From positions 54,249-118,248 of the IMG/VR virus record IMGVR_UViG_3300025141_013870: DNA of 64,000 nucleotides; one strand, 5' to 3'. Position numbers and translations under genes: made by a program. Origin of the DNA: a virus. Of the stretch, positions 5,844-39,370 are shown one piece after another. The notes beneath the pieces are model-generated. The model searched no databases. It had not been told where the DNA came from and was given only the letters and a program-made list of their open reading frames with translations. The stretch's first letter is position 1. Each line of letters opens with the position of its first letter.

Positions 5844-5853
5844 GGTAATATAA

Positions 5854-18791: not shown

Positions 18792-19037
18792 ATGTATAGA
18801 ATGTCAGACGAAGTTATTTCACAAATTGCAAAGCTTGTTCAGCTTGCAATTATCACTGGAACAGATGTCGTAGATAATCTTAGAATGATAAGAGTTGAAC
18901 CGTCTGAGGAAGATGGCGCATGTCTTTCACTGACACAAGAGTACAGAGAGATTGGTGAAAATCAGATTAATAGTTTGCTGTCTGAGCTTGACAATGTCAA
19001 TACTTCAGATGAGGAAGTAGATGTCGAAATCGAGTGA
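18792..19037 (+). CDS. Hypothetical protein
   Basis: SD AGGAG, 81 aa. Confidence 0.75.
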   Translation: MYRMSDEVISQIAKLVQLAIITGTDVVDNLRMIRVEPSEEDGACLSLTQEYREIGENQINSLLSELDNVNTSDEEVDVEIE

Positions 19038-19404
19038 TAATCTAAAACACATGTTTGATCTAAGAGAGTCATTTATGGTATCTCTTAGAAAGAAGTTTTC
19101 TACTGAAAATCCTGAATGGCCACTAGATCTTTCTACAAAAGAACATCAACAATATTGCAGAGACATAGCACTGAGAGGTGTTGAAGAGATGTTTGAAGCT
19201 CTGCAGCATTTAAAAAACTGGAAGCCACATCGGACAACTGAGATAACTGAATTTGACAGAGATGAGTTTTTAGAAGAGGTAGTAGATGCTTTTAATTACT
19301 TTTTATCTTTGTTAGTTTTGACAGGCTTTTCATCAGAAGATTTTTACAAGATGTATGTCAAGAAGGATAAGATTATACATGAAAGACTCAAAGGCGACTA
19401 TTAG
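19021..19404 (+). CDS. All-alpha dimeric dUTPase/dCTPase (dUTPase_2 / T4 gp56-like)
   Basis: VEEMFEAL..KNWKPH, LEEVVDAFNYF, KK..I.ER...Y. Confidence 0.75.
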   Translation: MSKSSDNLKHMFDLRESFMVSLRKKFSTENPEWPLDLSTKEHQQYCRDIALRGVEEMFEALQHLKNWKPHRTTEITEFDRDEFLEEVVDAFNYFLSLLVLTGFSSEDFYKMYVKKDKIIHERLKGDY

Positions 19405-20332
19405 AGATTTATTTGAATTACAAAAAAGATTTAATGATATTTTCTATGATATGGATGATATCGGATCAAGAGAACGAGAAGAGATCACAAAATCTTTAGC
19501 GCTAGCATTACACACTGAGGTTAGCTCTCTTATATCTGCAATAAACTTTAAAGATCACAGGCAGAATAAAAAAGATGCTGATGAATACAAGATCTTGTTT
19601 GAAAGTGTAGATATATTTCGATATCTTATTTCTATTCTAAACATCTGGGATATCACGCCAGAAAGATTTACAGAGGCATTTCTTGATAAGGATTTGTTTC
19701 TTCATGCAAGATACAAGATCAATTCTAGCAAGTGGTCGGGACAGGATGTAATCATAGTAGATCTTGATGATGTAGTAATAGAATTTAGGAATGGTTTTCT
19801 AGAGTGGCTTAGTGATACATATAAAATATTTGTTGACCCTGATAGCAAAGAATACTATACAACTGCTGAATTAAAAAATGCTGGTGTTAATCCTGAAAAG
19901 GTATTTTCTAATTTTATTAAGAGTAGAGGATTAAGATCTTTAGAAAAAAATCAAGATATGATTGATGTAATTAACAAGCTGAGTGCAGACGGATATTGGA
20001 TTCAGCTTTTAACAGCTAGACCGCAAGATAATCTTGTGTGCCATTACGATACGTTTAGATGGATAGAAAGCTCTAATTTAAAATATGATAGATTAGATTT
20101 CAGCAATGAAAAATATAGATGGTGTACCCAGTCTGATTATTTTGATAGCAACAGTATCGTGTGTGCTATAGATGACTCAGCTAAGCATAGTGCTGAATAT
20201 GCAAAACACGGAATTCCAGTTTTTCTTCCTTCAAAAAGTTACAACACTGAAGTACACAATATGACCAATGTAACAGTGTTTGATGATCCGAGAGACGTGT
20301 GGGAAAAAGTTAAATCTCTTAAGAATAAGTAG
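19379..20332 (+). CDS. Fusion: divergent all-alpha NTP pyrophosphatase + HAD 5'(3')-deoxyribonucleotidase
   Basis: N-half LFESVDIFRY; C-half IIVDLDDVV, LLTARP, AIDDS. Confidence 0.7.
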   Translation: MKDSKATIRDLFELQKRFNDIFYDMDDIGSREREEITKSLALALHTEVSSLISAINFKDHRQNKKDADEYKILFESVDIFRYLISILNIWDITPERFTEAFLDKDLFLHARYKINSSKWSGQDVIIVDLDDVVIEFRNGFLEWLSDTYKIFVDPDSKEYYTTAELKNAGVNPEKVFSNFIKSRGLRSLEKNQDMIDVINKLSADGYWIQLLTARPQDNLVCHYDTFRWIESSNLKYDRLDFSNEKYRWCTQSDYFDSNSIVCAIDDSAKHSAEYAKHGIPVFLPSKSYNTEVHNMTNVTVFDDPRDVWEKVKSLKNK

Positions 20333-21751: not shown

Positions 21752-22732
21752 ATGCCGCAAAATTTTGACTTAGATCCTATTGTACTACCAATGGATTTAA
21801 AGTTTGATCAAGATCCTACTACAGAGTTTTATAATAATCTACAAGCACTAAAGGTAGAGCTGATTGATTATCCAACCAGAACTCAGGCTTTAAAGGTTGC
21901 ATGGCAATATGTCAAGGCTACGTGGGCTGATCATCATGATGAAACAACCACTGCTGGAATTGATCCAGCAGAGCTATCAAAAAATCTTGAAGATGTTATG
22001 TGCTTTAGAGCTCTTCCCACTCCAATGGAGTGTCTTGGGTTCACGTTTAAATTGAGCGGGCTTTCATTTCAAGAGGTCACGCATATTATTCGTCACAGAG
22101 CAGGATCTTTTGCTGCTCAATGCACGGGAGATAGAGATCTTAGAAGTGATCCGGCTGTAATTCCCGAGGCTGTTCAAAATTCTCCTGAGTTTCTTGAGAG
22201 ATGGAAGAATCTTGTCTTAGAGTCTAAACAGTTATATGCAGACATGACTGATAGTAAAGATGTTTCAATGATGGATGCCAGGATGGTTCTTCCAAAGTGT
22301 ATGACTTCTTTTTATCTTATGAGAATGAATTTAAAAGATTTGCTTGGATTTATTCGACAGAGGCAGGATAAGCAGATTCAGCCAGCTGCTGACAACATTC
22401 TCGCCGCATATATGGCTAGAGAACTAATTAATGTGCTACCAGAAGCATCTGTAGCTATTAGATTCGACTCACCTGACATGCACTATATCAAGACATTTAG
22501 AGTTAAAGAAGCAGGAAGATGGACAAGTAAGGGGACAAATCTATACTGGCCTGAGCCAAAGAATGATACATTTGAGTATCATCCAGACGACACCATATAT
22601 CAGGCTCGAAGAGAATCAATTAACGGAACAAAGAAGCCAGACGGTCCTACAGTTTTTGAAAGATTATGGGACGATGTTATGAATGATATTAGTTTCATGA
22701 AGACAGAATATAATAAAAACAAATTAGAATAA
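21752..22732 (+). CDS. thyX: ThyX-like flavin-dependent thymidylate synthase (divergent)
   Basis: HIIRHR motif, DARMVLP, NLKDLLGFIRQR. Confidence 0.75.
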   Translation: MPQNFDLDPIVLPMDLKFDQDPTTEFYNNLQALKVELIDYPTRTQALKVAWQYVKATWADHHDETTTAGIDPAELSKNLEDVMCFRALPTPMECLGFTFKLSGLSFQEVTHIIRHRAGSFAAQCTGDRDLRSDPAVIPEAVQNSPEFLERWKNLVLESKQLYADMTDSKDVSMMDARMVLPKCMTSFYLMRMNLKDLLGFIRQRQDKQIQPAADNILAAYMARELINVLPEASVAIRFDSPDMHYIKTFRVKEAGRWTSKGTNLYWPEPKNDTFEYHPDDTIYQARRESINGTKKPDGPTVFERLWDDVMNDISFMKTEYNKNKLE

Positions 22733-22802: not shown

Positions 22803-23243
22803 ATGAAGGCATATATAGCAAGTTCGTGGTTTAATCCTGTAGCTAATCAGGAGGTAAACGATATTATTAGCTCTCTAGCAGAAAATAATTTTGAATTTTT
22901 TTCACCTAGAGATTTTTTTGTGTGTCCACCAGGCGCTGACCTAGAGACTCAAAAATCAACATATGAAGGAAATCTTGAACATCTTCACAATTGTGATTTC
23001 ATGATATGTAATACGCACGGAAAAGACATGGGATCAATTTTTGAGGCAGGATACTTTAAGGCACTAGATAAGCCTATTGTTTACTTTTGTGCAGGGTTGC
23101 CAGAGGGAGCATCATTTAATCTTATGCTAGCTCAAAGCGGTGTGACTGTGTGCACGTCAAAAGATCAACTAAGTGACTATCTATCTAGGTGTAGTGATCA
23201 AGAGCAGCTTCTTTTTGAGCCATATTACGGCAGTATTGAATGA
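22803..23243 (+). CDS. Nucleoside 2-deoxyribosyltransferase / dNMP N-glycosidase family
   Basis: YIASSWF, FSPRD, DMGSIFEAGY..ALDKPIV. Confidence 0.8.
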   Translation: MKAYIASSWFNPVANQEVNDIISSLAENNFEFFSPRDFFVCPPGADLETQKSTYEGNLEHLHNCDFMICNTHGKDMGSIFEAGYFKALDKPIVYFCAGLPEGASFNLMLAQSGVTVCTSKDQLSDYLSRCSDQEQLLFEPYYGSIE

Positions 23244-23713
23244 TATTTGCTTTTTTGCAAATTATCTCTACATGGATTTATGGCCACGTACTAGAGTACT
23301 CAATTCATAGATGGCTTTTGCATAAGCTTGGAACTAAAAAAGGTAGAATTTTTTCATTTCACTTCTATGGTCATCATAGCTTTGCAAGACTAAATGAATT
23401 TTTTGATAAATCATATTCTGGTTTTCCACTTAGGTGGGATCCCGCTGGAAAAGAATTGCTATCACTTTTATTCTTGATGGCAATTCATATTCCTGTTATG
23501 ATTTATTTACCATGGTCTGCACCCGTTATAGTATTTTCACTAGCACAATATTATTATGTTCACAGGAAATCTCATAACAACCCACATTGGGCAAGATCTA
23601 GTCTTATATGGCATTATGAACATCACATGGGATTAAATCAAAATAAAAACTATGGAGTCAGAACAGATATTATAGATAGGATTGTTGGAACTAGAGTAAG
23701 GTACTATAGATAA
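23240..23713 (+). CDS. Fatty acid hydroxylase / sterol desaturase family membrane protein
   Basis: His boxes HRWLLH, HFYGHH, HRKSH, HYEHH. Confidence 0.8.
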   Translation: MIFAFLQIISTWIYGHVLEYSIHRWLLHKLGTKKGRIFSFHFYGHHSFARLNEFFDKSYSGFPLRWDPAGKELLSLLFLMAIHIPVMIYLPWSAPVIVFSLAQYYYVHRKSHNNPHWARSSLIWHYEHHMGLNQNKNYGVRTDIIDRIVGTRVRYYR

Positions 23714-24818: not shown

Positions 24819-27800
24819 ATGTCAGAGAAAAAGAATTTTATACTTCCTAAGAGATTTGTCGGCTTACACGCTCACAGCGGAACTGGATCTCCGTATGACG
24901 GTCTGGGATATCCAGATCAGCATATAGATTTTGTTCTATCTAATGATATGGATGCATGGGCATTAACTGATCACGGAAACGGAAATGGTCTTGCACATGC
25001 TCATGCGTATGCCAAGAAGTTAAAAAACAAGGGACAAAAATATAAACAGCTGTATGGTGTAGAATTTTATTTTGTTCCTTCTCTTTTTGACTGGAGAATA
25101 CAATATGAGAATCATAGAGAGGAAGTTCGTCAAGCTAGAACAGAAAAAAAGTCAAAAGAGAGAACAGATATCGATTCTGAAGACGAGGTGTCAGGCGGAC
25201 TTATTATAGAAAACGAAGAAGAGACAAAAGGTGATTTTGATAAAAATGTGTGGAAAAGACGATATCATCTCGTTGTCTTAGCTAAAAACAGCCAGGGTCT
25301 AGAGAATTTATTTACTCTTGTAAAAAGATCATACACAGATGGTTTTTATAGATTTCCAAGAATTGATTTTGATCTTCTTAATAAGTATGGTGATGGCCTT
25401 ATAGTAAGCACAGCATGCATTGGCGGATACCCATCATCGTTAATAGCAAGAGGTGAATCACATGGAAAGTCAAGCAAAGATATCATTCTTGATTTAGAAA
25501 ACATGTCTGATAGATTTATTGACGCAGTAGGAAGAGAAAATTTTAATCTCGAGATTCAATTCAATTCATTGTCTATGCAACATAAGACAAACAAATATCT
25601 TATAAAGCTTCATGAAAAAACAGGAATTCCTCTAGTTGCAACTGCTGATAGTCACTACTATAGCAGAAACATGTGGGAAGCAAGAGAGCTTTACAGAAAG
25701 CTTGGCAGAATGGGAGCTAGAGGAGATTCAATGCCTACACTTCCTTCTTTTGAAGATCTTAAATGTGAGCTTTATCCTAAGAATGCTAACCAGATGTGGG
25801 ATGAATTTAACGTTCACCTTCCTGAATATGAGTTTTATAAAGGAAAAGAACAGATTATTTCCGATGCAATTGAGAGAACATATGACATTGCATGGGAACA
25901 ATGTGAAGAAATATGGTTTGACGAAGATGCAAAATTACCAAATTTTGACTTGCCTGACAATCCTGCTATTACTCAGCTAGTATTTAGAGTCAAAAAAGCA
26001 CTTATTGATGAAGGTCTTCACGAAAAGAAAGAGTATGTAGAAAGAGCAACGATGGAGCTGAGCGACATCAAGCACCTTGGTTTTGAAAATTATTTTCTCA
26101 CAATGACAAAGGTTTTTGATCTAGCTTCAAAGAAAACTATTATTGGACCAGGAAGAGGTTCTGGAGCAGGATCTCTTGTAAATTATCTCTTAGGAATCAC
26201 TACGACAGATCCCATCAAGTATGGTCTTCTATGGGAGAGGTTTTTGCATAGAGCAAAAGCAGGATGGCCAGATATTGATACAGACGCTGGTGATAGAGAT
26301 GTCTTGATAAATGCGTCTAGAGAATTATTTGGAGATGAATCAGTTGTACCTGTTTCAAATTTTAATACTTTAAAATTAAAATCTCTAATAAAAGATGTTT
26401 CAAAATTTTATGGCATTGATTTTGGTGAGGTCAATGCAATGACAAATAAGCTTGAAAAAGAAGTCATGCATAAGGCAATGGGAGACCATGAAGAAAAATC
26501 GACTTATGTTCTAACTCATGAAGACTGTTTGAAATATTCTGATAACTATGTTGACTTCATGTCAAAATATCCAAAGGTATCCGAACAGGTTCAAAAGCTT
26601 TTTATGGAATCAAGATCTATTGGAAGACATGCAGGCGGAGTCCTGATATGCCCAAATCTAGAAAAATATATGCCACTTATTAAGGTAAGAGGAGAGCTCC
26701 AGACGCCATGGTCAGAAGGCATGAACTTTAGGCACTTAGAGCCTAATGGCTTTCTTAAGTTTGATTTTCTAGGTCTAACAACTTTAAAAATGGTTGAAGA
26801 TTGTATTCGACTTGTCTTGAGAAAACAGGGAAACACATCACCTTCATTTGATGACATTAGTAAATTTTTTGATGATAATATAAACTGTAGATATAATGAC
26901 TTAACTGATGATAAAGTTTGGGAACATGTTTATCACAAGGGAAGATTTGTACAGGTGTTTCAATTTACGCAGCAGGGCGCAAGAAATTTTTGCAGAAGAG
27001 CAAAGCCAAGAACCATAGAAGAGCTAGCAACAATTACGGCAATATATAGGCCGGGCCCGCTGGCAGCAAATGTTGATAAGAAATATGTCAAGACGAAAAG
27101 GGAGGCAGAAAATGGAAGCCCTATTCGCTATGATCATCCAGTGATTGAAGAGATACTGAGTGAAACATATGGTTTTATATCATTCCAAGAGCAATTCATG
27201 CTCTTAGCACAGAGGCTATCAGGATTTGACAAGGGGGAATCAGACAAGATGAGAAAGACACTTGTCAAGAAGTCTCTTGATTCAAATGCAGCAAAGGTGC
27301 AGGAAAGAATTGACTTAAGAAAGAAGTTTGTTGATGGAGCAGTTGAGCTATCTGGAATGAAAAGAGATATAGCAGAGACTCTTTACGAGACAATTGAGTA
27401 TTTTTCTGGATATGGATTTAATAAATCACATGCGATTTCGTATGCGATCGATTCGTATTATTCTGCGTGGCTGCATACTCATTATGAAAAAGAATGGCTA
27501 GCCACATGTCTTCAGACTCAAAACGGAACAAATAAGTTTGGAAAGGTTATCAATGAGATCAAGTCTTTGGGATACAAAATACTTCCTCCTGACATTAATA
27601 TTTCTTCTGATGTCTGGGTGTATAGTGATGAAAGAAACGGTTTTGTTCCGCCTTTAACTGCGATCAAAGGTGTTGGATCAGCTGCAGTTGAAGAGATCAT
27701 TGATCGCAGACCGTTTTCTAATATAGATGAAATGCTTTTTACAGAGGACGGAAAATGGAAGCCTTCTAAGATGAATAAAACATGCTTTGATTCATTGTGC

Positions 27801-28385
27801 AAGGTAGAAGCTTTTGGATCACTTGATGAGATGAAAAATAGAGCAATTAAGAATCATAGACAGCTATATGAAACAATTGTTGGAAATTATGATCTTTTAA
27901 AAAAAGGTCGATACGGAATAACAAAAACTGCGTATAAAAAGACTATTAAAGAAAGAGGTGATATTCCAAGATTTATAGATGAAAAAACAATAGAGAATTA
28001 TGATCTTCAAGATTGGACTCGTGAATCTAAAATATTATTTAGTGTTGACTTGATGGCAGGAGCAGATGAAACTCTTATCTTTCCTCCAAAGATAATGGAG
28101 AAGATTGAAAATGCCAATGTGAGACCTGCCTCTAGCCTGATGGGAAAGGAGAAAGATATAGTCTGGTTCTGTATTCAAACACTAGAGGAGAGAACAACGA
28201 AAAATGGAAAAATTTTCTACAGGATGAAAGTTATAGATAATAACTTCGAAAGTACGTGGATTCGTGTTTGGGGTGCATTTAGAGATATTCCAGATCTTTA
28301 CACCATGTGGATCGCTGAGGTTGCATCTACAGATTCATGGGGCTGTTCTACATCGTCATATAAAATGAAAAGGATTGATGTATAG
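24819..28385 (+). CDS. dnaE: DNA polymerase III alpha subunit (PHP domain with intact metal ligands)
   Basis: LHAHS, TDHG, GRGSGAGSL, PDIDTD, GRHAGG, KFDFLGL, GFNKSHA. Confidence 0.95.
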   Translation: MSEKKNFILPKRFVGLHAHSGTGSPYDGLGYPDQHIDFVLSNDMDAWALTDHGNGNGLAHAHAYAKKLKNKGQKYKQLYGVEFYFVPSLFDWRIQYENHREEVRQARTEKKSKERTDIDSEDEVSGGLIIENEEETKGDFDKNVWKRRYHLVVLAKNSQGLENLFTLVKRSYTDGFYRFPRIDFDLLNKYGDGLIVSTACIGGYPSSLIARGESHGKSSKDIILDLENMSDRFIDAVGRENFNLEIQFNSLSMQHKTNKYLIKLHEKTGIPLVATADSHYYSRNMWEARELYRKLGRMGARGDSMPTLPSFEDLKCELYPKNANQMWDEFNVHLPEYEFYKGKEQIISDAIERTYDIAWEQCEEIWFDEDAKLPNFDLPDNPAITQLVFRVKKALIDEGLHEKKEYVERATMELSDIKHLGFENYFLTMTKVFDLASKKTIIGPGRGSGAGSLVNYLLGITTTDPIKYGLLWERFLHRAKAGWPDIDTDAGDRDVLINASRELFGDESVVPVSNFNTLKLKSLIKDVSKFYGIDFGEVNAMTNKLEKEVMHKAMGDHEEKSTYVLTHEDCLKYSDNYVDFMSKYPKVSEQVQKLFMESRSIGRHAGGVLICPNLEKYMPLIKVRGELQTPWSEGMNFRHLEPNGFLKFDFLGLTTLKMVEDCIRLVLRKQGNTSPSFDDISKFFDDNINCRYNDLTDDKVWEHVYHKGRFVQVFQFTQQGARNFCRRAKPRTIEELATITAIYRPGPLAANVDKKYVKTKREAENGSPIRYDHPVIEEILSETYGFISFQEQFMLLAQRLSGFDKGESDKMRKTLVKKSLDSNAAKVQERIDLRKKFVDGAVELSGMKRDIAETLYETIEYFSGYGFNKSHAISYAIDSYYSAWLHTHYEKEWLATCLQTQNGTNKFGKVINEIKSLGYKILPPDINISSDVWVYSDERNGFVPPLTAIKGVGSAAVEEIIDRRPFSNIDEMLFTEDGKWKPSKMNKTCFDSLCKVEAFGSLDEMKNRAIKNHRQLYETIVGNYDLLKKGRYGITKTAYKKTIKERGDIPRFIDEKTIENYDLQDWTRESKILFSVDLMAGADETLIFPPKIMEKIENANVRPASSLMGKEKDIVWFCIQTLEERTTKNGKIFYRMKVIDNNFESTWIRVWGAFRDIPDLYTMWIAEVASTDSWGCSTSSYKMKRIDV

Positions 28386-29290
28386 TGTTATTGTTTCCTA
28401 CAAATACTCTTTTTATAGAAGGTCCTGACTGTTCTGGAAAGACAACTTTAATAAAGAACATTCACAATCTATCAAATTATTTGTGGCATATTCACGATAG
28501 ATCTCAAATATCAAGAAGCATATTTAATGAGCTTTATAATAGAGAAAATGATAACATAGAGTCAGATTTACATCTTGAAATTTCAAATCTCAATAATAGA
28601 TTCGTCTTGTTACTACCTGATATAAGGGTTGTTAGTGAAAGATTTATTAAAAGAGGAGATGACTTTCATAAAGACATGAAATCAATAGAAAGTGTTTATA
28701 ATATCTTTGAGAGAAAATTTAAATACCTAAGAGATTTTCCAAATACTATGATATATTCAAAAAGTCATCCAGATGAAATAGCATCAATTGTGCTCGCCAG
28801 GCTTCATCTTGTTGAACGATGCATGATTAGAGAGGTATCAGATCAGGTATTAAGATTTGTAGAGTGTAATAATAATGAGGCTTATCCCGTTAAGTTTACA
28901 TTATATGATGATGGTGAATTTGAAGAGGCTAGTGAATCAGTACTTGACTATAAGCCAGAAAGCGATTATTACAATTCCATATTTAATAAACTGCACACAA
29001 AAATAAGTGATGAGCTAGCGGGAAATAATGAATATAGCAGGGTTGAAGATACAACCTCTAGAAGATTTATTTATACAGATAATACATGTATATCGCTTAT
29101 TCATGTCGCAATTAGAGACAGAGTTATGGATTTTCATACAGTGATTAGATCATCTGATGTCGAAAACATTTTTCCTCACGATCTAAGATTTTTGTATTAT
29201 CTAGCTGCCACTTGTTATAATAGATTTTCAGATGAATGTGATAAGGTTAGAATGAGATTTAATTTAAACTCTGCTCACATAATATGTTAA
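28385..29290 (+). CDS. Fusion: dNMP kinase-like P-loop domain + thymidylate-synthase-fold domain (dCMP hydroxymethylase-type)
   Basis: EGPDCSGKTT and HDRS; C235, R255-S-S-D258, P-H-D266, C-terminal SAHI. Confidence 0.7.
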   Translation: MLLFPTNTLFIEGPDCSGKTTLIKNIHNLSNYLWHIHDRSQISRSIFNELYNRENDNIESDLHLEISNLNNRFVLLLPDIRVVSERFIKRGDDFHKDMKSIESVYNIFERKFKYLRDFPNTMIYSKSHPDEIASIVLARLHLVERCMIREVSDQVLRFVECNNNEAYPVKFTLYDDGEFEEASESVLDYKPESDYYNSIFNKLHTKISDELAGNNEYSRVEDTTSRRFIYTDNTCISLIHVAIRDRVMDFHTVIRSSDVENIFPHDLRFLYYLAATCYNRFSDECDKVRMRFNLNSAHIIC

Positions 29291-29316: not shown

Positions 29317-30324
29317 ATGAAAAGAGCACTAGTAACAGGAGGATGCGGATTTATCGGATCCAATCTTTCAAAGAGACTTGTAAAAGACGGATGGGTTGTT
29401 GACATTGTAGATGATCTATCAAGTGGACATTTAGAGCTAGTTCAAGAATTAAAGATTAGAGTTATACCGGTAGACTTGTTATCACAATTTTATGATAATT
29501 TTGATAGAGATGAAGGAACAGTTCACATTTTGCAAGGTGATTTTTCACATGACAATGTGTTAAAAAATATCATTGATCAAAAATATGATTATGTTTTTCA
29601 TCAGGCTGCGATACCAAGGGTCCTTTTTTCTGTTGAAAACCCATCTTTAACAACAGAAGTGAATATAGCAGAAACGGTTAGGTTGTTTGAGGCATGCATA
29701 GGAAGTGTCAAGAGAGTCATATTTGCATCATCATCATCTGTTTACGGAGGCGCGGATGTTCTTCCCACACGTGAAAGTATGTCAAAAAATCCTAAGTCAC
29801 CATATGCGTGGCAAAAGAGCGCAGTTGAAGATATAGCGGAATTATTTTGTCAATTATACGATATTGATATCGTATGCTTAAGATACTTTAACGTCTTTGG
29901 ACCAGGCCAGTATGGCGACTCTCCGTACTCCACAGCAGTTTCTGCCTGGTGTCACGCACTTAAAAATGGATCGCCTATGAGAAGTGACGGTGATGGATCA
30001 CAAACAAGAGATATGTGCTATATTGACAATGTTATCCACGCTAACGTACTAGCTGCTGAATCTGATCGAACGAGATTTGATGGATTTAATGGAAGATGCT
30101 ATAATATTTCATGCGGAGATAGAACATCTAATTCTGAAATATTAGAATACTTTACAAAGAGATATTCTCACGCAGCTGTTGTCAATGCTCCCTGGAGACC
30201 TGGTGATGTAATGCACACCCAGGCAGATATATCAAGAGCAAGCGAAGAGATTGGATATGAACCTCTTGTGAGATTCTGGGACGGACTAGAAAAGACTATT
30301 GAATGGTGGGGTATAGATTCTTGA
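29317..30324 (+). CDS. NAD-dependent nucleotide-sugar epimerase/dehydratase
   Basis: VTGGCGFIGS, SSSSVYG, YAWQK (YxxxK), LRYFNVFGP. Confidence 0.92.
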   Translation: MKRALVTGGCGFIGSNLSKRLVKDGWVVDIVDDLSSGHLELVQELKIRVIPVDLLSQFYDNFDRDEGTVHILQGDFSHDNVLKNIIDQKYDYVFHQAAIPRVLFSVENPSLTTEVNIAETVRLFEACIGSVKRVIFASSSSVYGGADVLPTRESMSKNPKSPYAWQKSAVEDIAELFCQLYDIDIVCLRYFNVFGPGQYGDSPYSTAVSAWCHALKNGSPMRSDGDGSQTRDMCYIDNVIHANVLAAESDRTRFDGFNGRCYNISCGDRTSNSEILEYFTKRYSHAAVVNAPWRPGDVMHTQADISRASEEIGYEPLVRFWDGLEKTIEWWGIDS

Positions 30325-30755
30325 TGCTTTCTAAAAAACACGTAAAATCTTCCTGGGTTGTTAGAAAAAAAACAAACAGTGTTATAAACAAACCTTGGGG
30401 AACTGAAACAATATGGTCAGGATTTTTTGGAATTCATGGAAAAACATGTTTTATTAAAGCCGGTGCCAGATCAAGTTTTAAATATTTTCCAATAAAATCT
30501 GAAGTTTTATTTTTAAGATCTGGAAAGGCAGAGGTGACGTTTGGGGCTGAGGAGACACTATTGGATCCCATAGGCTATCCGTTAAAGAGTGAGATACTTT
30601 GCGAGGGAGACGTGCTAATGGTTCAATCTGGCTGCCCGTATAGGGTTAAAGCCATAACTGATTGTGAGATAATTGAGATAGGAAATAATTCTACAGATAA
30701 GCCAGTTAGAATAGAGGATGACTATGGAAGAGCTACAGCTAAAAAGAAATCCTGA
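30324..30755 (+). CDS. Cupin-fold protein (sugar isomerase-like)
   Basis: VINKPWGTE start and cupin beta pattern, though usual His ligands are not evident; ORF track start 30303. Confidence 0.6.
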   Translation: MLSKKHVKSSWVVRKKTNSVINKPWGTETIWSGFFGIHGKTCFIKAGARSSFKYFPIKSEVLFLRSGKAEVTFGAEETLLDPIGYPLKSEILCEGDVLMVQSGCPYRVKAITDCEIIEIGNNSTDKPVRIEDDYGRATAKKKS

Positions 30756-32394: not shown

Positions 32395-32521
32395 AAACCC
32401 ATACGCACACCTACCAAAAGTTATAAAGTCATTTTTTGGAAAGTCATATAAAGATTTATCAGATGATAAAATAGATGAAGTGATGTATATAATTGAATAT
32501 TGCACGGAGAATCCATTTTAA
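32294..32521 (+). CDS. Small hypothetical protein overlapping the DHH gene
   Basis: GRNPYAHL..FGKSYKDL looks protein-like; fills gap to next gene. Confidence 0.6.
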   Translation: MNQKNCKKIRETIQESAKKLEGKLPSSSRHPKGRNPYAHLPKVIKSFFGKSYKDLSDDKIDEVMYIIEYCTENPF

Positions 32522-32522
32522 T

Positions 32523-33272
32523 ATGTCATATCTTGGTTATATAAAATGCTTATCAAAGCTAATGTCACATATTAATGATCCTGTTATATTAGAGATAGGC
32601 GTTGACTATGGGCAATCTACTCTTCCTCTTGTTCATAACCTTATCTCATCTTGCGATCGTTTTTTATATACAGGTGTCGATATAAAGTTACGACAAGAGG
32701 TAATTGAACAAGCTGTTCAGATGAACGATGTTTTACTTTTAGGAAAGCCGGGCGTGCCTAAAGATTCTGCAAATGTTGTATTTTATACAGCTAACAGTCT
32801 TGAATTATTACCAAAGCTTAAAAGTCACGGTGCAAAATATGATTTAATTCTTATCGATGGAGATCACAATTACTTCACTGTTAAAAATGAACTTGATCAC
32901 ATAAAGGATATCGTGTATCCAAGCACAATAATTATGTGTGATGACTATAACGGTAGATGCGCTGAGTCAGACATGTTTTATTCTGATAGAAAAGAATATG
33001 AATCTATTGAAATCGCCACACCAAGAAAGCATACTGAGAAACAAGGAGTGCGCACGGCTGTCTCTGACTTTCTAAGTGAAAACCCTACGTGGGCAATTCT
33101 TGATCATGGTCTGGATCCTTGTTTTTTATTCCAGAAAGACTACGTTGATTTTAATATTTTTTCTCCTGAAGGCTCAACATCTCTTAGCGATTGTATTTTA
33201 GAGTTTAATCTCAAGTCACCTTCAGCATTGGCAAGGTTCAAGGAGAGCACAATTGCGTCCATCATGGAATAA
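32523..33272 (+). CDS. Class I SAM-dependent methyltransferase
   Basis: ILEIGVDYGQS, YDLILIDGDH, CDDY. Confidence 0.8.
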   Translation: MSYLGYIKCLSKLMSHINDPVILEIGVDYGQSTLPLVHNLISSCDRFLYTGVDIKLRQEVIEQAVQMNDVLLLGKPGVPKDSANVVFYTANSLELLPKLKSHGAKYDLILIDGDHNYFTVKNELDHIKDIVYPSTIIMCDDYNGRCAESDMFYSDRKEYESIEIATPRKHTEKQGVRTAVSDFLSENPTWAILDHGLDPCFLFQKDYVDFNIFSPEGSTSLSDCILEFNLKSPSALARFKESTIASIME

Positions 33273-33697: not shown

Positions 33698-33970
33698 ATG
33701 AAGACCTTTTCCTCAAAAGATATCTTAGAGATCGTAAAAAAAATACATAATCAAAATGAAAATATTGATGTATTTGCAGGAAAAGGATCAGATAGAAAAA
33801 TAATAGTTAAAAAGGGCCTGAAGATACGTCACAAGCCATCAGGCCTAGTTTATACTGTTTTAAAGGTAATAATTCCAGATGGTAGCTCTGAACCTAAAAT
33901 TTTATGCAGAAGGCCTGGAAAGGAATTACTTATTACGAGAAATGAGTTTAAAGACTACGAGAGGCACTAA
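33698..33970 (+). CDS. Hypothetical protein
   Basis: SD GAGGTG; 90 aa. Confidence 0.75.
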   Translation: MKTFSSKDILEIVKKIHNQNENIDVFAGKGSDRKIIVKKGLKIRHKPSGLVYTVLKVIIPDGSSEPKILCRRPGKELLITRNEFKDYERH

Positions 33971-34680
33971 TGTCAGATAATAAGGATAAAGGATTGTTCA
34001 CACATAAAGATTTGAGAAAAAACATCAGAAAAAGCTTGAATCTTTGTGATGAGAGGCTAGATGAATCCTATGTTGCACAAGTGAAACAATTTAATCTACC
34101 AACAGAATTACTTAGCAAGTCAAGTAAAAAAAATCATATAGTGCTCTACGACAATTATGTAGCTGTATTTAATAGAATTAGCGCTGAGCTTGATACCGCA
34201 GATAGAGCTAGTTCAAATTCTGATCATTCTCAATTTAGAGATCTTAAAGTTGATGAGACATATAATATGAATTCATCTTACTTACATGAATTATACTTTT
34301 CTAACATTAGTGATCTTCATAGCGAGATATCGATGGATTCACTGTCTTATATGCGTCTCGCTAGAGACTTTGGCTCTTTTGATGATTGGCAAAAAGATTT
34401 TGTCGCTTGCTGCTTGGCTTCTAGGTGCGGCTGGGCGATTACATATTTTAATACTTTCATGCAAAGATACATGAATTGCTCTATTGATCTGCATAGTCTT
34501 AATGTTCCCGTGGGTGCTTATCCCGTCATAGTGATGGATGTGTGGCAACATGCTTATTATAGAGACTATCTTAAGGATGTAAAGACATATGTATATGGCA
34601 TGATGAAGCAGCTAAATTGGAAAGTTATAGAAAAACGATTTGAGAAAGCTGATGAAATTCAAAAAATACTAAGGGCATAA
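33970..34680 (+). CDS. sod: Fe/Mn superoxide dismutase family protein with N-terminal extension
   Basis: HIVLYDNYV, LHELYFSN, DVWQHAYYRDY. Confidence 0.8.
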   Translation: MSDNKDKGLFTHKDLRKNIRKSLNLCDERLDESYVAQVKQFNLPTELLSKSSKKNHIVLYDNYVAVFNRISAELDTADRASSNSDHSQFRDLKVDETYNMNSSYLHELYFSNISDLHSEISMDSLSYMRLARDFGSFDDWQKDFVACCLASRCGWAITYFNTFMQRYMNCSIDLHSLNVPVGAYPVIVMDVWQHAYYRDYLKDVKTYVYGMMKQLNWKVIEKRFEKADEIQKILRA

Positions 34681-37088: not shown

Positions 37089-38975
37089 ATGAAAGTCATC
37101 GTTAATAGAAATGCATTAGAAACAGCTATCAAAAGCATGGTCGAGTCTCGAAGCATACAGTCAACAAGTATAGACACTATAGCTGGAGACATAGATGCCG
37201 ACGAAACTGATGAGCCAATACAGGCATCTGACATGATGTCTGTTCAGCTCGCAGTTGATAAGCCCCCTGTTGAAGATCCAGAGTTTGTTCCAACAACCCG
37301 ACAAGCGCTAGGAAGATCAGCATCAGCGATATCTCAAGAGGTTCCAGATGATCAGATAGATTTTTTCTATAGGAAGCTACATGATCTTTTAGATCAATCC
37401 CTAGATAGGCATGATGCTTCTAAATGGGAGGAGCCCACAGTTGAACAGGAAGATGAAGAAGCCGTGGAGGCACAAGATGAAGCCATACCAGAGGAAGAGG
37501 ATTCTATAAGAGAAGCTAAGTTTAGAAAAGCTGTGTCATTAATGCTTGAGGAAGATGATTCTTTTACAGAAGACGAACATGACAAGATAGTTGTTGCCAC
37601 AGAAGAGATAGTAGAATTTCTTGAGTCAATTAAATTTGGATATTCTACTAGAGAAAGAGTTTTAACTGCTGGAGAAATTCAGACATATTTTGCTGATGGT
37701 CTTATGAGACGAGCATTAGACGACATTCTTGATACAAATGATATGCTTCCAGAGATATCGTCAGCTATAGCTGACTTGTCAGATATCGAAAAAGACCGTG
37801 TGCTATCAAATGTAAGGGATCACTACATGAAGCTTTCAAGGTCAATTCCAACTCAGCAAGATGTTGACCAGATAGATGCGAATAAAGAAGTTGACATGGT
37901 TGCAAATTCAATGTTAAAATCTATGTCATCTGACGATGTTGCAAAATTCCTATTAAACAAGGCTAAATCTGAAAAAGATCCCTTAAAGAAAAATGCTTAT
38001 AATAATATAGCAACATTACTCTTGAAGAAGGGCGAGACAGCATTTGTTGATCCTGGGTACTATGGTGAAAAAGAAGAAGAGGAAGCACAATTATCTCCAG
38101 AAGATGCAGCACAAGTTGCACAAGAGAAGCTCGAGAGAGATTTAAAGAAGCTAGATGCTCTTGCAGCTGTCTTCGGTTTCAGCGCAGCAAGCGGGTTTAG
38201 ACAGTGGAGGATGAAATTTCCCGAACCTATTTTTAAAGCTGTCCTTGGATCAGAAGGTGGGATCTCTGAGTATAGAGGATTTTCTAATGAAGTCTATAAA
38301 TCTATGATACTTGCAATGAAAAAGGTGTCTGAGATGGTCGGTCTTCTCGTCGAAGAGGTTGAGGATGATTTAGAAGAAAACCCTGGAGACAAAGATCTTG
38401 AACAGATGGTAGAGGTGCTTCAGAAGATTGATATAGAGTTACTTGAAATTGGAGAGACAGTAACAGAGGATGGCGACTTTGACAGTGAAATGATTCACAA
38501 TACTCTTGGAGGAAAAGTTTTAAAACAGATATTTAGCACTCATTTTTATAAGCCTCCGTTTACTGAGTATGCTAGAACAATTAAAAAACACATGATATCG
38601 TTTCTTACCGGCCAGGGAATAGATCAGAAAACTGCATCAACGTTTGCCAAGATGTTCAACGGAGAGGTTGATCTGCTTCCTTATAATTCTCCAAAAATGC
38701 AAATGAATAAGGTTCGGCTGGGCGGTGTGACGATTCAAATTTATAGAGCTTCGCTAGCAGAGGCACAAAAATTTAATAGAGTATTTTTTGGAAAAGAAAA
38801 TAGAGAAAAAATTAGTGCTAATTTTGAAAAGATGCTAAGAGATCCACAAAAAATCACTCGAGCAATATTTGATTCAATTCCTGATGTATTAGAATGGTCA
38901 TCTACTGAGAGTGAAAATCCCCAATTACAGGTAACTGAAACTCGCATAAGAGATCTTATCTCAGGAATGATTTGA
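37089..38975 (+). CDS. Large acidic hypothetical protein with LRxxI motifs
   Basis: Long ORF (track start 37077); three copies of the recurrent motif. Confidence 0.75.
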   Translation: MKVIVNRNALETAIKSMVESRSIQSTSIDTIAGDIDADETDEPIQASDMMSVQLAVDKPPVEDPEFVPTTRQALGRSASAISQEVPDDQIDFFYRKLHDLLDQSLDRHDASKWEEPTVEQEDEEAVEAQDEAIPEEEDSIREAKFRKAVSLMLEEDDSFTEDEHDKIVVATEEIVEFLESIKFGYSTRERVLTAGEIQTYFADGLMRRALDDILDTNDMLPEISSAIADLSDIEKDRVLSNVRDHYMKLSRSIPTQQDVDQIDANKEVDMVANSMLKSMSSDDVAKFLLNKAKSEKDPLKKNAYNNIATLLLKKGETAFVDPGYYGEKEEEEAQLSPEDAAQVAQEKLERDLKKLDALAAVFGFSAASGFRQWRMKFPEPIFKAVLGSEGGISEYRGFSNEVYKSMILAMKKVSEMVGLLVEEVEDDLEENPGDKDLEQMVEVLQKIDIELLEIGETVTEDGDFDSEMIHNTLGGKVLKQIFSTHFYKPPFTEYARTIKKHMISFLTGQGIDQKTASTFAKMFNGEVDLLPYNSPKMQMNKVRLGGVTIQIYRASLAEAQKFNRVFFGKENREKISANFEKMLRDPQKITRAIFDSIPDVLEWSSTESENPQLQVTETRIRDLISGMI

Positions 38976-39370
38976 TGAAACTAGTAGAGCTACTAGAGAA
39001 ATCACAAGGCACTCAGTTGCCCACGACATCTGTTGGAATGGCTCTAGGAAATTTGCAAACAACGATTCCGGATACTGAACCTCCAATCAAAGCTGAGAGC
39101 TCTGACTGGACCACATTCACAGACCCTGAGAGGATATCTAGAACTTTTAATTTTGATAAATCTAATCATTTGAAATATTTTATCACAGAATTATTATCAT
39201 ACCAGGAAAAAGTTCAGCACCATGCAAAGATTACAATAGAACACGGAAGCGTTAGCGTAGAGACTTATACACATGATATTAACTCTGTTACACAACAAGA
39301 TATATCACTTGCAAAGTTTTGTGACGAGATATATGATGATGTAACTTTTCTTGACTGGTCTAGAAGATGA
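38975..39370 (+). CDS. Pterin-4-alpha-carbinolamine dehydratase family protein with N-terminal extension
   Basis: ISRTFNF, QHHAKI, THDINSVTQQDISLAKFCD. Confidence 0.8.
   Translation: MKLVELLEKSQGTQLPTTSVGMALGNLQTTIPDTEPPIKAESSDWTTFTDPERISRTFNFDKSNHLKYFITELLSYQEKVQHHAKITIEHGSVSVETYTHDINSVTQQDISLAKFCDEIYDDVTFLDWSRR

What the first reader, a model, noticed from the sequence alone, without database searches (positions are those of the whole stretch)
28385..29290. dNMP-kinase/ThyA-fold fusion with the Asn-to-Asp switch of cytosine-modifying enzymes
Seen: a P-loop kinase N-half is fused to a compact TS-fold domain. C235 lies exactly 20 residues before R255-S-S-D258 (as E. coli ThyA C146/R166), and RSSDVENIFPHD aligns gap-free with RSCDVFLGLPFN, so Asp266 replaces Asn177. 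The C-terminal SAHI resembles the T4 hydroxymethylase S-L-H rather than the ThyA D-x-H. Established: Asp at this position gives dCMP specificity (T4 dCMP hydroxymethylase Asp179; ThyA N177D). Inference: the enzyme modifies dCMP at C5 (methyl, hydroxymethyl or hydroxy) and the fused kinase channels the product toward the phage Pol III, whose stop codon overlaps this gene's start.
Basis: partly seen in the sequence, partly recalled or inferred. Interest (0 to 1): 0.85.

Follow-up and report, generated by a model that had tools for sequence, protein, structure and literature searches.

The report
Nucleotide kinase fused to mini thymidylate-synthase domain
An uncultured marine giant phage encodes, right after its DNA polymerase gene, one protein that joins a small nucleotide kinase to a stripped-down thymidylate-synthase-like domain with a cytosine-type active site, so the phage probably builds an altered cytosine into its DNA, but which alteration is not known.

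Summary
ORF 28385-29290 (301 aa) is a real, conserved gene. Residues 1-145 are a YorR/Tmk-like P-loop kinase. Residues 146-301 are a 156-residue thymidylate-synthase (TS) fold.

- C235, with R255-S256 twenty residues later
- D258
- D266 in place of ThyA Asn177
- S-A-H at the C-terminus

The domain folds at pLDDT 97. Only TS-superfamily structures match it well. The best match is the flavin-dependent dCMP 5-hydroxylase AfhB (Z 11.9, 141 of 156 residues).

It keeps the nucleotide-binding and catalytic core. It lacks the segments that bind folate in ThyA and T4 dCMP hydroxymethylase. The Asp169-to-Asn marker of 5-hydroxy-dCMP synthases is absent here but present in half of the family.

The fusion lay within 10 kb of a Pol III alpha gene in 75 of 75 related viral loci. 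A split form exists (kinase gene overlapping a mini-TS gene, beside a PolB). The kinase half falls in the same PHROG as the kinases next to the RB69 and JS10 5-hydroxy-dCMP synthases.

Most likely it is a dCMP C5-modifying enzyme with its own kinase, with 5-hydroxy more likely than 5-hydroxymethyl as product. Cofactor and any attached sugar are unresolved. It is a new variant of a known kind. This scan reached the same reading for this fusion in several other genomes.

The parts
28385..29290 (+). Whole gene: 301-aa kinase / mini-TS fusion (GTG start, TAA stop)
   Evidence: 395 homologues, almost all of those listed about 300 aa and aligning over the full length. 75 non-redundant viral loci.
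28370..28374 (+). AAGGA ribosome-binding-like site, 10 nt before the GTG and inside the end of the Pol III alpha gene
   Evidence: read directly from the sequence
28385..28819 (+). N-terminal domain, residues 1-145: YorR/Tmk-like P-loop nucleotide kinase. Walker A is E12-G-P-D15-x-x-G18-K19-T-T. It also has D38-R39-S40 and a lid motif R86-x3-R90-G-D92.
   Evidence: VIA Z 14.1 to B. subtilis SPbeta YorR 2axp (140 aligned, rmsd 2.5), followed by dTMP and deoxynucleoside kinases. Profile against PDB sequences: YorR E 7e-6. phrog_761 'thymidylate kinase' E 6e-10. Motif residues at least 95% conserved.
28820..29290 (+). C-terminal domain, residues 146-301: minimal thymidylate-synthase fold (helix A, strand i, helix B, then the SRR, Cys and RS strands, helix J, and the last strand with S-A-H)
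   Evidence: Domain model pLDDT 97.2. VIA: 9iqc AfhB Z 11.9 (141 of 156 aligned), ThyA 3ix6 Z 11.0, MilA Z 10.2, T4 dCH Z 8.9, next unrelated row Z 5.7. Foldseek 9iqu E 6.8e-8. hhalign E 7e-10.
29087..29089 (+). Codon of Cys235, which aligns with the catalytic nucleophile Cys146 of ThyA and Cys148 of T4 dCH
   Evidence: present in 75 of 75 family members
29060..29065 (+). Codons of Arg226-Arg227, which align with the phosphate-binding pair R126'-R127' that ThyA receives from the partner subunit
   Evidence: 75/75 and 74/75
29147..29158 (+). Codons of R255-S256-S257-D258 (ThyA R166-S167-C168-D169). Position 258 varies in the family: Asn 37, Asp 28, Glu 10.
29180..29182 (+). Codon of Asp266, at the position of ThyA Asn177 and T4 dCH Asp179 (the cytosine-specificity and N3-protonating residue)
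   Evidence: 75/75. Role of this residue from PMC6400193 and PMC13326640.
29270..29278 (+). Codons of S296-A297-H298 (ThyA D205-T-H207). The same S-A-H is found in the RB69, JS10, RL38J1 and Thanatos enzymes (5-hydroxy-dCMP synthases and homologues). The protein ends three residues later.
   Evidence: H298 in 75/75
24819..28385 (+). Pol III alpha (DnaE-type) replicative polymerase, 1188 aa; its stop codon overlaps the fusion's start codon
   Evidence: Pfam PHP, DNA_pol3_alpha, finger and HHH_6 domains. Present within 10 kb of the fusion in 75 of 75 loci.
29317..30324 (+). NDP-sugar 4-epimerase/dehydratase-family SDR, 26 nt downstream. It is a conserved neighbour whose link to the fusion is unproven.
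   Evidence: Pfam Epimerase 1e-46. Best NCBIfam families are TviC and GalE, both below cut-off. Within 10 kb in 58 of 75 loci and directly downstream in 37.

Best explanation
The gene encodes a two-step enzyme for making a modified cytosine nucleotide.

TS-like domain. It binds dCMP. The phosphate is held by Arg255/Ser256 and, across a TS-type dimer, by Arg226/Arg227. The base is read and N3-protonated by Asp266. Cys235 attacks C6, which makes C5 nucleophilic, and a non-methyl group is installed at C5. The most likely group is hydroxyl, by chemistry related to the flavin/O2-dependent 5-hydroxy-dCMP synthases (AfhB, RB69 gp48). Hydroxymethyl is less likely.

Kinase domain. The fused YorR/Tmk-type kinase phosphorylates the modified dNMP to the dNDP, so that it can reach the phage's own Pol III.

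Shown: the fold, the conserved residues, the fusion, the split form and the gene context. Inferred: the substrate, the product, the cofactor, the order of the two steps and the dimer.
For: 1. Fold. Only TS-superfamily chains match the domain (Z 8.9-11.9, then a drop to 5.7). AfhB is best in both VIA and Foldseek.

2. Sequence. hhalign against the TS family gives E 7e-10. The profile hits only the two dCMP-acting enzymes in the PDB (T4 dCH 1.7e-4, AfhB 3.6e-3), not ThyA.

3. Conservation. E192, R226, C235, R244, R255, S256, D266 and H298 are invariant across 75 sequences down to 29% identity. R244, at Cys+9, is shared with T4 dCH and RB69 gp48 but not with ThyA.

4. Motifs. S-A-H is identical to that of the four aligned 5-hydroxy-dCMP-synthase-type enzymes (RB69, JS10, RL38J1, Thanatos). 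Asn at the D169 position, the published hydroxylase marker (PMC13326640), occurs in 37 of 75 members.

5. Kinase link. The N-domain's best PHROG is phrog_761. The kinases beside the RB69 and JS10 synthases belong to the same PHROG (E 1.6e-45 and 1.5e-39). In JS10 the kinase gene overlaps the synthase gene in the same order as in this fusion.

6. Split form. In L087 a 155-aa kinase gene overlaps a 215-aa mini-TS gene next to a PolB. hhalign to the two halves of the fusion gives E 1.3e-12 and 1.7e-11.

7. Redundancy. The phage has its own ThyX, dCMP deaminase and TK, so dTMP synthesis does not need a second TS. A 100%-complete 284-kb relative has no other TS-fold gene detectable with PF00303.

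8. Context. The gene lies within 10 kb of the replicative polymerase gene in 75 of 75 loci.
Against: No biochemical or DNA-composition data exist for any member.

This protein has Asp258, not the Asn said to mark hydroxylases. Position 258 switches among D, N and E between clades with the same gene neighbourhood, so it cannot be used to call the product.

Several segments are absent: the one carrying Trp80/Trp83 in ThyA (Ile81/Trp82 in T4 dCH), the corresponding about 45 residues of RB69 gp48, and the C-terminal Tyr218/Arg220 region of T4 dCH. No known cofactor pocket, folate or flavin, can therefore be pointed to.

The Tyr94-equivalent general base (Y217) is only 80% conserved in the fusions and is not conserved in the stand-alone forms.

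L087 carries a second, full-size dCMP-type TS homologue as well, so the mini-TS may do something other than the first C5 modification.

No gp56-like dCTPase could be confirmed. No DNA glycosyltransferase lies nearby.
Confidence: 0.55

Rival explanations
1. It is a folate-dependent dCMP hydroxymethylase of the T4 gp42 type, joined to a gp1-like kinase function. The product would be 5-hydroxymethyl-dCDP, possibly decorated later.
For: The best sequence hit in the PDB is T4 dCH. This protein has Asp258, as T4 has Asp171, and Asp232 three before the Cys, as T4 has Asp145, the residue that activates the hydroxylating water. Glu192 aligns with Glu60/Glu58, which activates methylene-THF. Many stand-alone mini-TS proteins carry G-S-L-H as T4 does.
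Against: The residues that hold the PABA and pterin rings in T4 dCH (Tyr56, Ile81, Trp82, Val85, Tyr218, Arg220) lie in segments that this domain does not have. Glu at the E58 position is also kept in the flavin enzymes, so it does not discriminate. Half of the family has Asn at 258. L087 already has a Trp-bearing, T4-like TS homologue besides its mini-TS. T4 gp42 has no adjacent phrog_761 kinase.
Confidence: 0.15
2. The order of steps or the chemistry differs. Either the kinase acts first (deoxycytidine or another precursor to the monophosphate) and feeds the TS-like domain, or the TS-like domain uses Cys addition at C6 for something other than C5 substitution. Examples are acting on an already modified dCMP, deamination or exchange, or use of a small electrophile in a pocket shared with the kinase.
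For: The kinase is N-terminal, or upstream, in all forms. The D-R-S motif and the fold hits fit deoxynucleoside kinases as well as dNMP kinases (the dNK E-R-S motif is from my own knowledge). No canonical cofactor segment is present. The L087 phage has an extra full-size dCMP-type TS. In RB69 a separate gp1-type kinase already phosphorylates 5hodCMP, which leaves the cluster kinase without a proven role.
Against: The conserved set (Cys, Asp, Glu192, His298, three phosphate-binding Arg residues plus Ser256) is exactly the set used for C5 substitution in every characterised family member. The P-loop Asp15 and the lid Arg residues fit Tmk-type dNMP kinases (motif roles from my own knowledge).
Confidence: 0.2
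3. It is an ordinary thymidylate synthase fused to thymidylate kinase (dUMP to dTMP to dTDP), or a kinase with a non-catalytic nucleotide-binding appendage.
For: Source annotations call homologues 'thymidylate kinase' or 'deoxyadenosine/deoxycytidine kinase'. PHROG names the N-half 'thymidylate kinase'.
Against: Asn177 is replaced by Asp in 75 of 75 members. The phage has ThyX for dTMP. The folate and hydride-transfer parts are missing. An invariant Cys, Glu and His argue against a passive domain.
Confidence: 0.05

Closest known systems
Flavin/O2-dependent 5-hydroxy-dCMP synthases of the TS superfamily: E. coli phage HY126 AfhB (PDB 9iqu, 9iqc), RB69 gp48, DLP3 gp80, RL38J1 gp216 (PMC13326640; He et al. 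2026, not readable here)
   Same: Best structural match (Z 11.9, 141 of 156 residues; Foldseek E 6.8e-8). Shared features: the catalytic Cys, Arg at Cys+9, R-S, Asp at the N177 position, an acidic residue three before the Cys, the S-A-H motif, a shortened C-terminus, no Trp80/Trp83, and a phrog_761 kinase next door (fused here). Asn at D169 occurs in half of the family.
   Different: The domain is about 80 residues shorter (156 against 217-238 aa). It lacks the whole stretch between helix B and the SRR strand and ends 3 residues after S-A-H. This protein has Asp, not Asn, at the marker position. It is fused to the kinase and sits beside a Pol III alpha in uncultured marine jumbo phages. No arabinose or glycosyltransferase genes are adjacent. 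Flavin binding is untested.
T4 gp42 dCMP hydroxymethylase (PDB 1b5d, 6a9a) with gp1 dNMP kinase
   Same: Best PDB hit by sequence profile (E 1.7e-4). Equivalents of Cys148, Asp179, Asp171, Asp145, Glu60 and Arg123/124 are all present. The logic is the same: modify dCMP, then phosphorylate it with a phage kinase.
   Different: The folate PABA/pterin pocket residues and the C-terminal Tyr218/Arg220 are absent. The kinase belongs to a different family (YorR/Tmk-like, not gp1) and is fused.
B. subtilis SPbeta YorR (PDB 2axp, 3kb2) and phrog_761 'thymidylate kinase' (RB69 ORF045, JS10 gp40)
   Same: Fold (Z 14.1), the G-P-D-x-x-G-K P-loop, the D-R motif and the R-x-R-G-D-[DE] lid. Like these kinases, it lies near a phage polymerase or nucleotide-modification genes.
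   Different: Substrates of YorR and of the phrog_761 kinases are not established. The N-domain here is shorter (145 aa) and covalently joined to the TS-like domain.
Stand-alone mini-TS proteins of viruses (165-215 aa; e.g. L087:5836-6483; weak phrog_160 and phrog_35203 hits)
   Same: Same minimal fold elements and the same invariant residues (Glu, Tyr, Arg, Cys-x-Ser, Arg at +9, Arg-Ser, Asp, His). In L087 the gene is preceded by an overlapping gene for the same kind of kinase and is followed, about 440 nt downstream, by a DNA polymerase gene.
   Different: Not fused. The second Arg of S-R-R varies (R, K or Q). The C-terminal motif is S-L-H or S-A-H. They are uncharacterised as well.

Membership tests
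Thymidylate synthase superfamily (fold level) | TS alpha/beta fold with a central sheet that carries the active site | tested here: met
   Domain model pLDDT 97.2. Seven TS-superfamily chains score Z 8.9-11.9 and cover 134-143 of 156 residues; the next chain scores Z 5.7. More than 360 Foldseek hits with E below 1e-3; every row listed is a TS-family entry.
Thymidylate synthase superfamily (fold level) | Catalytic Cys, and R-S 20 residues later; Arg-Arg pair before the Cys strand; His in the last strand | tested here: met
   C235, R255-S256, R226-R227 and H298 align with C146, R166-S167, R126-R127 and H207. All are 99-100% conserved.
Thymidylate synthase superfamily (fold level) | Recognition by the curated family model Pfam PF00303 | tested here: not met
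   No PF00303 hit at E of 1 or below for the protein or anywhere in the 118-kb record. NCBIfam finds nothing.
ThyA (dUMP to dTMP, folate-dependent) | Asn177 reading uracil O4/N3-H | tested here: not met
   Asp266 in 75 of 75 members
ThyA / T4 dCH (folate-dependent enzymes) | Folate-binding elements: the Ile79-Trp80-Trp83 loop (T4 Ile81/Trp82/Val85) and the C-terminal segment (T4 Tyr218/Arg220; ThyA C-terminus) | tested here: not met
   Only about 13 residues lie between helix B and S-R-R, against about 60-68 in ThyA, T4 and RB69. The protein ends 3 residues after His298. Residue roles are from PMC6400193. A pocket built in another way cannot be excluded.
dCMP-acting TS homologues (T4 dCH, MilA, 5hodCMP synthases) | Asp at the N177 position; polar or acidic residue at the L143 position (non-methyl product) | tested here: met
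   D266 is invariant. D232 is present here (Asp in 42 of 75, otherwise S, Q, N, E, G or H) and the next residue is Asp in 56 of 75. The rule is from PMC13326640.
5-hydroxy-dCMP synthase (AfhB / RB69 gp48 type) | Asp169-to-Asn substitution, proposed as diagnostic | tested here: not met
   D258 in this protein. Family: Asn 37, Asp 28, Glu 10, switching between clades without any change in neighbourhood. Marker from PMC13326640.
5-hydroxy-dCMP synthase (AfhB / RB69 gp48 type) | Bound flavin and O2-dependent hydroxylation | not testable with these tools
   Needs the purified protein (UV-vis at 370/455 nm, 18O2 labelling), as done in PMC13326640.
5-hydroxy-dCMP synthase (AfhB / RB69 gp48 type) | Gene-cluster partners: a phrog_761 kinase next to the synthase; NDP-sugar synthesis genes and DNA glycosyltransferases | tested here: inconclusive
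   The kinase partner is met, being fused here and in the same PHROG as RB69 ORF045 and JS10 gp40. An NDP-sugar epimerase is adjacent. No glycosyltransferase was found in the record or near the fusion in 75 loci. GT1/GT2 clusters lie more than 100 kb away in 2 of 4 large relatives.
Tmk / YorR-like dNMP kinases | P-loop kinase fold with Walker A Lys, a D-R motif and an Arg-rich lid | tested here: met
   Z 14.1 to YorR, 11.9 to S. tokodaii dTMP kinase. G18-K19, D38-R39, R86 and R90-G-D92 are at least 95% conserved. The Pfam Thymidylate_kin model itself does not hit; there is only AAA_28, below its cut-off.

The most novel reading that the evidence does not exclude
The mini-TS domain is a third mechanistic type of pyrimidine-C5 enzyme. 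It has lost both the folate and the flavin pockets known in the superfamily. It would either use a different cosubstrate or build its cofactor site together with the kinase partner. It would then give an abundant, cosmopolitan lineage of marine and freshwater jumbo phages a cytosine derivative that has not yet been described.
Probability: 0.2. Interest if true: 0.85.

Novelty: new variant of a known kind. Interest (0 to 1): 0.66.

Why it matters
TS-fold enzymes are the entry point to nearly all known pyrimidine hypermodifications of phage DNA. Only in 2025-2026 was it shown that the fold can also run flavin-dependent hydroxylation.

This family is the smallest TS fold seen here (about 155 residues). 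Pfam and NCBIfam do not detect it. It has hundreds of homologue clusters in public, mainly marine, metagenomes. It lay near the replicative polymerase gene in all 75 viral loci examined.

If it does make a modified dCMP, three things follow:
- A large group of uncultured jumbo phages has non-canonical DNA. That affects how well they are recovered by sequencing, how they evade restriction and CRISPR, and how their hosts can be predicted.
- The minimal domain would define the irreducible catalytic core of the superfamily.
- The fused and split kinase partner also gives a testable role for the unexplained 'nucleotide kinase' next to the RB69, DLP3 and JS10 5-hydroxy-dCMP synthases.

Tried and rejected
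Searches that found nothing for the TS-like half:
- Pfam and NCBIfam on the protein.
- phmmer against PDB sequences.
- PF00303 in the phage's own record and in four large relatives.

No cultured relative:
- tblastn of the fusion against 50,697 phage records found only a weak kinase-only hit in a pelagiphage.
- Pol III alpha has no relative above 33% identity there.

dCTPase idea:
- The two dUTPase_2-like ORFs (19021-19404, 19355-20332) show no pairwise similarity to RB69 gp56. I do not call them a dCTPase.

Glycosylation idea:
- No GT1 or GT2 in the 118-kb record.
- None among the conserved neighbours within 10 kb.
- GT clusters in 2 of 4 large relatives lie far from the fusion and look like polysaccharide clusters.
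- A sugar on the base is therefore not supported, and the adjacent epimerase remains unexplained.

Position 258 as a product marker was rejected. D, N and E switch between clades that have the same neighbours.

Tools and steps that failed:
- Alignments A3 and A2 were too diverse for the search for related loci.
- P0260 and P0229 gave no viral locus.
- P0254 led to a full-size TS cluster (L098), not a mini-TS.
- He et al. 2026 (AfhB structure paper) is not held, so the flavin-contacting residues of AfhB could not be mapped.

Cellular genomes:
- There was one full-length match, on a 26-kb contig of an archaeal MAG, probably a mis-binned viral contig.
- The other matches cover the kinase half only, in DPANN and Patescibacteria genomes.
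Full report
**The gene.** ORF 28385..29290 (+) encodes 301 residues.
- Its GTG start shares one base with the TAG stop of the upstream 1188-aa Pol III alpha gene (24819..28385).
- An AAGGA site lies 10 nt before the start.
- Homologues start with the same M-L-x-F-P-T, so the start is well placed.
- The gene is real and under selection. A word-indexed search found 395 homologues. Almost all of those listed are about 300 aa and align over the full length, and they come mostly from marine metagenomes, on contigs of up to 280 kb.
- A scan of IMG/VR gave 80 loci and 75 non-redundant proteins, down to 29% identity, almost all aligning over nearly the full length.

**N-terminal half (residues 1-145).**
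- Pfam sees only a sub-threshold AAA_28 match.
- PHROGs gives phrog_761 'thymidylate kinase'.
- A family profile finds B. subtilis SPbeta YorR among PDB sequences (E 7e-6). The alignment covers the E-G-P-D-C P-loop and the R-x-R-G-D-E lid.
- In the full-length AF2 model (pLDDT 93.9, pTM 0.90) this half matches YorR at Z 14.1 (140 residues, rmsd 2.5). dTMP kinases and deoxynucleoside kinases follow at Z 10-12.
- E12, G13, P14, D15, G18, K19, D38, R39, R86, R90, G91 and D92 are at least 95% conserved.
- This is an intact nucleotide kinase of the Tmk/YorR type. Whether its acceptor is a dNMP or a nucleoside cannot be read from the sequence.

**C-terminal half (residues 146-301).**
- No curated family model recognises it.
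- hhalign of the 75-sequence domain profile was run against an alignment of E. coli ThyA, T4 gp42, RB69 gp48, JS10 gp39, RL38J1 gp216 and Thanatos TH1_062. All of these were fetched from annotated records. The result was probability 96.5% and E 7.2e-10.
- The alignment pairs S-R226-R227 with S-R126-R127, C235 with C146, R255-S256 with R166-S167, D258 with D169, D266 with N177 and H298 with H207.
- An HMM of the domain searched against all PDB sequences finds only T4 dCMP hydroxymethylase (E 1.7e-4) and the HY126 dCMP hydroxylase AfhB (E 3.6e-3). No dUMP-type ThyA is found.
- Folded alone, the domain reaches pLDDT 97.2.
- In an exhaustive comparison with 48,161 chains, the only rows with Z of 8 or more belong to the TS superfamily:

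| Chain | Z | Aligned residues |
|---|---|---|
| AfhB 9iqc | 11.9 | 141 of 156 (rmsd 2.9) |
| Brucella ThyA | 11.0 | 140 |
| MilA | 10.2 | 143 |
| three further TS chains | 9.7-10.1 | 137-141 |
| T4 dCH | 8.9 | 134 |
| next, unrelated row | 5.7 | 84 |

- Foldseek also ranks AfhB first (E 6.8e-8).

**What is kept and what is missing.**
- The model has helix A, strand i, a long helix B carrying E192-x-x-Y195-Y196, a short loop with N215 and Y217, then the S-R-R strand, the Cys strand, the strand ending in R-S, helix J starting at D266, and the last strand ending in S-A-H.
- This is the whole central sheet of TS with its three flanking helices.
- Three parts are missing when compared with ThyA, T4 gp42 and RB69 gp48:
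  - about 45-55 residues between helix B and S-R-R, the part that carries Ile79/Trp80/Trp83 in ThyA and Ile81/Trp82/Val85 in T4;
  - 11 residues before the Cys;
  - everything after the His. ThyA has 57 more residues there, T4 about 30 and RB69 about 15, whereas this protein has 3.
- According to the T4 ternary-complex paper, the folate rings are held by Tyr56, Ile81, Trp82, Val85, Phe174, Tyr218 and Arg220 (PMC6400193). Most of these have no counterpart here.

**Conserved residues.** Across the 75 sequences the following are invariant or nearly so: E165, E192, Y195, Y196, R226, R227, C235, R244, R255, S256, D266, F269, S296 and H298.
- R244, nine residues after the Cys, is shared with T4 gp42 and RB69 gp48 but not with ThyA.
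- The position three before the Cys (ThyA L143) is D232 here and is polar in most members.
- PMC13326640 links an acidic residue at that position to non-methyl products, and an Asp at N177 to dCMP specificity.
- The same paper proposes Asp169-to-Asn as the signature of 5-hydroxy-dCMP synthases.
- This protein has D258. The family has Asn in 37, Asp in 28 and Glu in 10 members. On a tree these states switch between clades whose neighbouring genes are the same. I conclude that this position does not decide the product in this family.
- The C-terminal S-A-H is identical to the motif in RB69, JS10, RL38J1 and Thanatos. T4 has S-L-H and ThyA has D-T-H.

**Context.**
- The record is a 118-kb fragment, estimated at 37% of a jumbo-phage genome.
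- Genes around the fusion:

| Window coordinates | Gene |
|---|---|
| 19021-20332 | two dUTPase_2-like ORFs, one fused to an NT5C nucleotidase |
| 21752 | ThyX |
| 22803 | NDT-family protein |
| 23723 | DnaJ |
| 24819 | Pol III alpha |
| 29317 | NDP-sugar epimerase/dehydratase-family SDR |
| 30303 | cupin |
| 30718 | thymidine kinase |
| 31312 | DHH phosphoesterase |
| 32493 | class I methyltransferase |
| 33253 | dCMP deaminase |

- Occurrence of these genes within 10 kb of the fusion in the 75 non-redundant loci:

| Gene | Loci (of 75) |
|---|---|
| Pol III alpha | 75 |
| TK | 62 |
| dCMP deaminase | 61 |
| epimerase | 58 (directly downstream in 37) |
| NDT | 40 |
| ThyX | 34 |

- Other recurrent neighbours are a GMP-reductase-like protein, an Fpg/Nei glycosylase, a trimeric dUTPase, a phosphoribosyltransferase and a sulfotransferase.
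- No glycosyltransferase, flavin reductase or DHFR is among them.
- A 284-kb relative rated 100% complete has no PF00303-detectable TS. The mini-TS is therefore the only TS-fold gene that this model-based search leaves in that genome.

**The kinase and the TS-like part belong together.**
1. RB69 ORF045 and JS10 gp40 are the 'nucleotide kinases' that sit in the arabinosyl-5-hydroxycytosine clusters (PMC13326640). Both are members of phrog_761 (E 1.6e-45 and 1.5e-39). phrog_761 is also the best PHROG of the N-domain here (E 6e-10).
2. In JS10 the kinase gene overlaps the start of the synthase gene. The order, kinase then TS homologue, is the same as in the fusion.
3. An exhaustive profile search of 1.84 billion representatives found 444 relatives of the domain. 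Besides fusions, these include stand-alone proteins of 165-200 aa with the same invariant residues. They weakly hit phrog_160 'thymidylate synthase'.
4. In one viral contig (L087) a 155-aa kinase gene (5381-5848) overlaps a 215-aa mini-TS gene (5836-6483), with a PolB gene about 440 nt downstream. hhalign links the two genes to the two halves of the fusion, with E 1.3e-12 over 100 columns and E 1.7e-11 over 104 columns.

The module therefore exists split and fused, always in the same order, and beside replicative polymerases of two different families.

**Interpretation.**
- The conserved set is a Cys nucleophile, an Asp that reads and protonates cytosine, a Glu on helix B, a His in the last strand, and three phosphate-binding Arg residues plus Ser256. 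This is the set used by every characterised dCMP-modifying TS homologue.
- dTMP synthesis is already covered by ThyX, dCMP deaminase and TK.
- I therefore read the protein as a dCMP C5-modifying enzyme joined to the kinase that moves the modified nucleotide towards the triphosphate (confidence about 0.55 for this core statement).
- For the product I lean to 5-hydroxy (about 0.3). The reasons are the best fold match, S-A-H, Asn258 in half of the family, the absence of the Trp loop, the truncated C-terminus and the phrog_761 partner.
- 5-hydroxymethyl is less likely (about 0.15). In its favour are the best sequence hit to T4 dCH and the presence of Asp258 and Asp232 here.
- Some other product remains possible (about 0.1).
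- Methyl is unlikely because the L143 position is polar.

**Open problems.**
- No cofactor pocket can be pointed to, neither for folate nor for flavin.
- Y217, the possible Tyr94 equivalent, is only 80% conserved and is lost in the stand-alone forms.
- L087 also has a 248-aa, Trp-bearing, dCMP-type TS homologue (R-S-I-D, N-D, S-N-L-H). In that phage the mini-TS may therefore do something different from a first hydroxymethylation.
- The role of the adjacent epimerase is unknown, and a sugar on the base is not supported.
- A gp56-type dCTPase could not be confirmed.

**Novelty and earlier work.**
- I found no paper describing a kinase/TS-fold fusion or a 155-residue TS domain.
- Public annotations of homologues read 'hypothetical protein', 'thymidylate kinase' or 'deoxyadenosine/deoxycytidine kinase'.
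- The closest described systems are the 5-hydroxy-dCMP synthases (2025-2026) and T4 gp42.
- I class this as a new variant of a known kind.
- Earlier follow-ups in this scan reached the same reading for the same fusion on other genomes. I saw those notes only after my own analysis, and they agree with it.

Noticed in passing
L087:2051-2797 and L087:5381-6483 (IMGVR_UViG_3300033148_006757): One viral contig carries both a full-size (248 aa) dCMP-type TS homologue (R-S-I-D, Asp at N177, S-N-L-H, Trp loop present) and the split kinase plus mini-TS pair. It also has ThyX and an NT5C nucleotidase, next to a PolB. Two cytosine-type TS-fold enzymes in one phage suggest two different chemistries.
   Followed up: partly
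window 29317-30755 and 32493-33272: An NDP-sugar 4-epimerase-family SDR lies directly downstream of the fusion in 37 of 75 loci. It is followed by a small cupin and, further on, a Methyltransf_24 class I methyltransferase. No glycosyltransferase is nearby, so the target of this sugar chemistry is unexplained.
   Followed up: partly
window 19021-19404 and 19355-20332: Two overlapping ORFs each match a different half of the dimeric dUTPase_2 model (profile 105-162, then 2-90). The second ORF continues into an NT5C 5'-nucleotidase domain. This is either an odd split or permuted arrangement or a pyrophosphatase-nucleotidase fusion. There is no similarity to RB69 gp56.
   Followed up: partly
window 21752-22732: ThyX homologue of 326 aa (Thy1 domain at residues 37-230, E 1e-19), with about 95 extra C-terminal residues. 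It is present near the fusion in 34 of 75 loci.
   Followed up: no
window 22803-23713: A nucleoside 2-deoxyribosyltransferase-family protein (146 aa) is followed by a 157-aa fatty-acid-hydroxylase-superfamily (di-iron membrane) protein. I recall, without checking here, that MilB, which partners the CMP hydroxymethylase MilA, belongs to the NDT family, so this gene might act on a modified nucleotide.
   Followed up: no
window 38972-39370 and 33970-34680: The phage encodes a pterin-4a-carbinolamine dehydratase and a protein with an Fe/Mn superoxide dismutase C-terminal domain. The SOD-like gene is near the fusion in 52 of 75 loci.
   Followed up: no
L098:3257-5720 (IMGVR_UViG_3300033121_001553): A 187-kb viral contig has the arrangement kinase (N-domain-like, 179 aa), then a 319-aa ORF, then a full-size 323-aa TS homologue. 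This resembles the RB69 order of kinase, glycosyltransferase and synthase.
   Followed up: no
L100-L112 (genome contigs): Kinase-only relatives of the N-domain (matching residues 7-136 or so) occur in DPANN archaea (Woesearchaeota, Nanoarchaeota) and Patescibacteria MAGs. The only full-length fusion in a cellular bin is on a 26-kb contig of an archaeal MAG (L099), probably a mis-binned virus.
   Followed up: no
G001:C1:124000-150500 and G003:C1:202000-214500: Two large relatives (284 kb and 237 kb) carry clusters of three GT1 and two GT2 glycosyltransferase genes more than 100 kb from the fusion. Two other large relatives (87% and 70% complete) have none.
   Followed up: no
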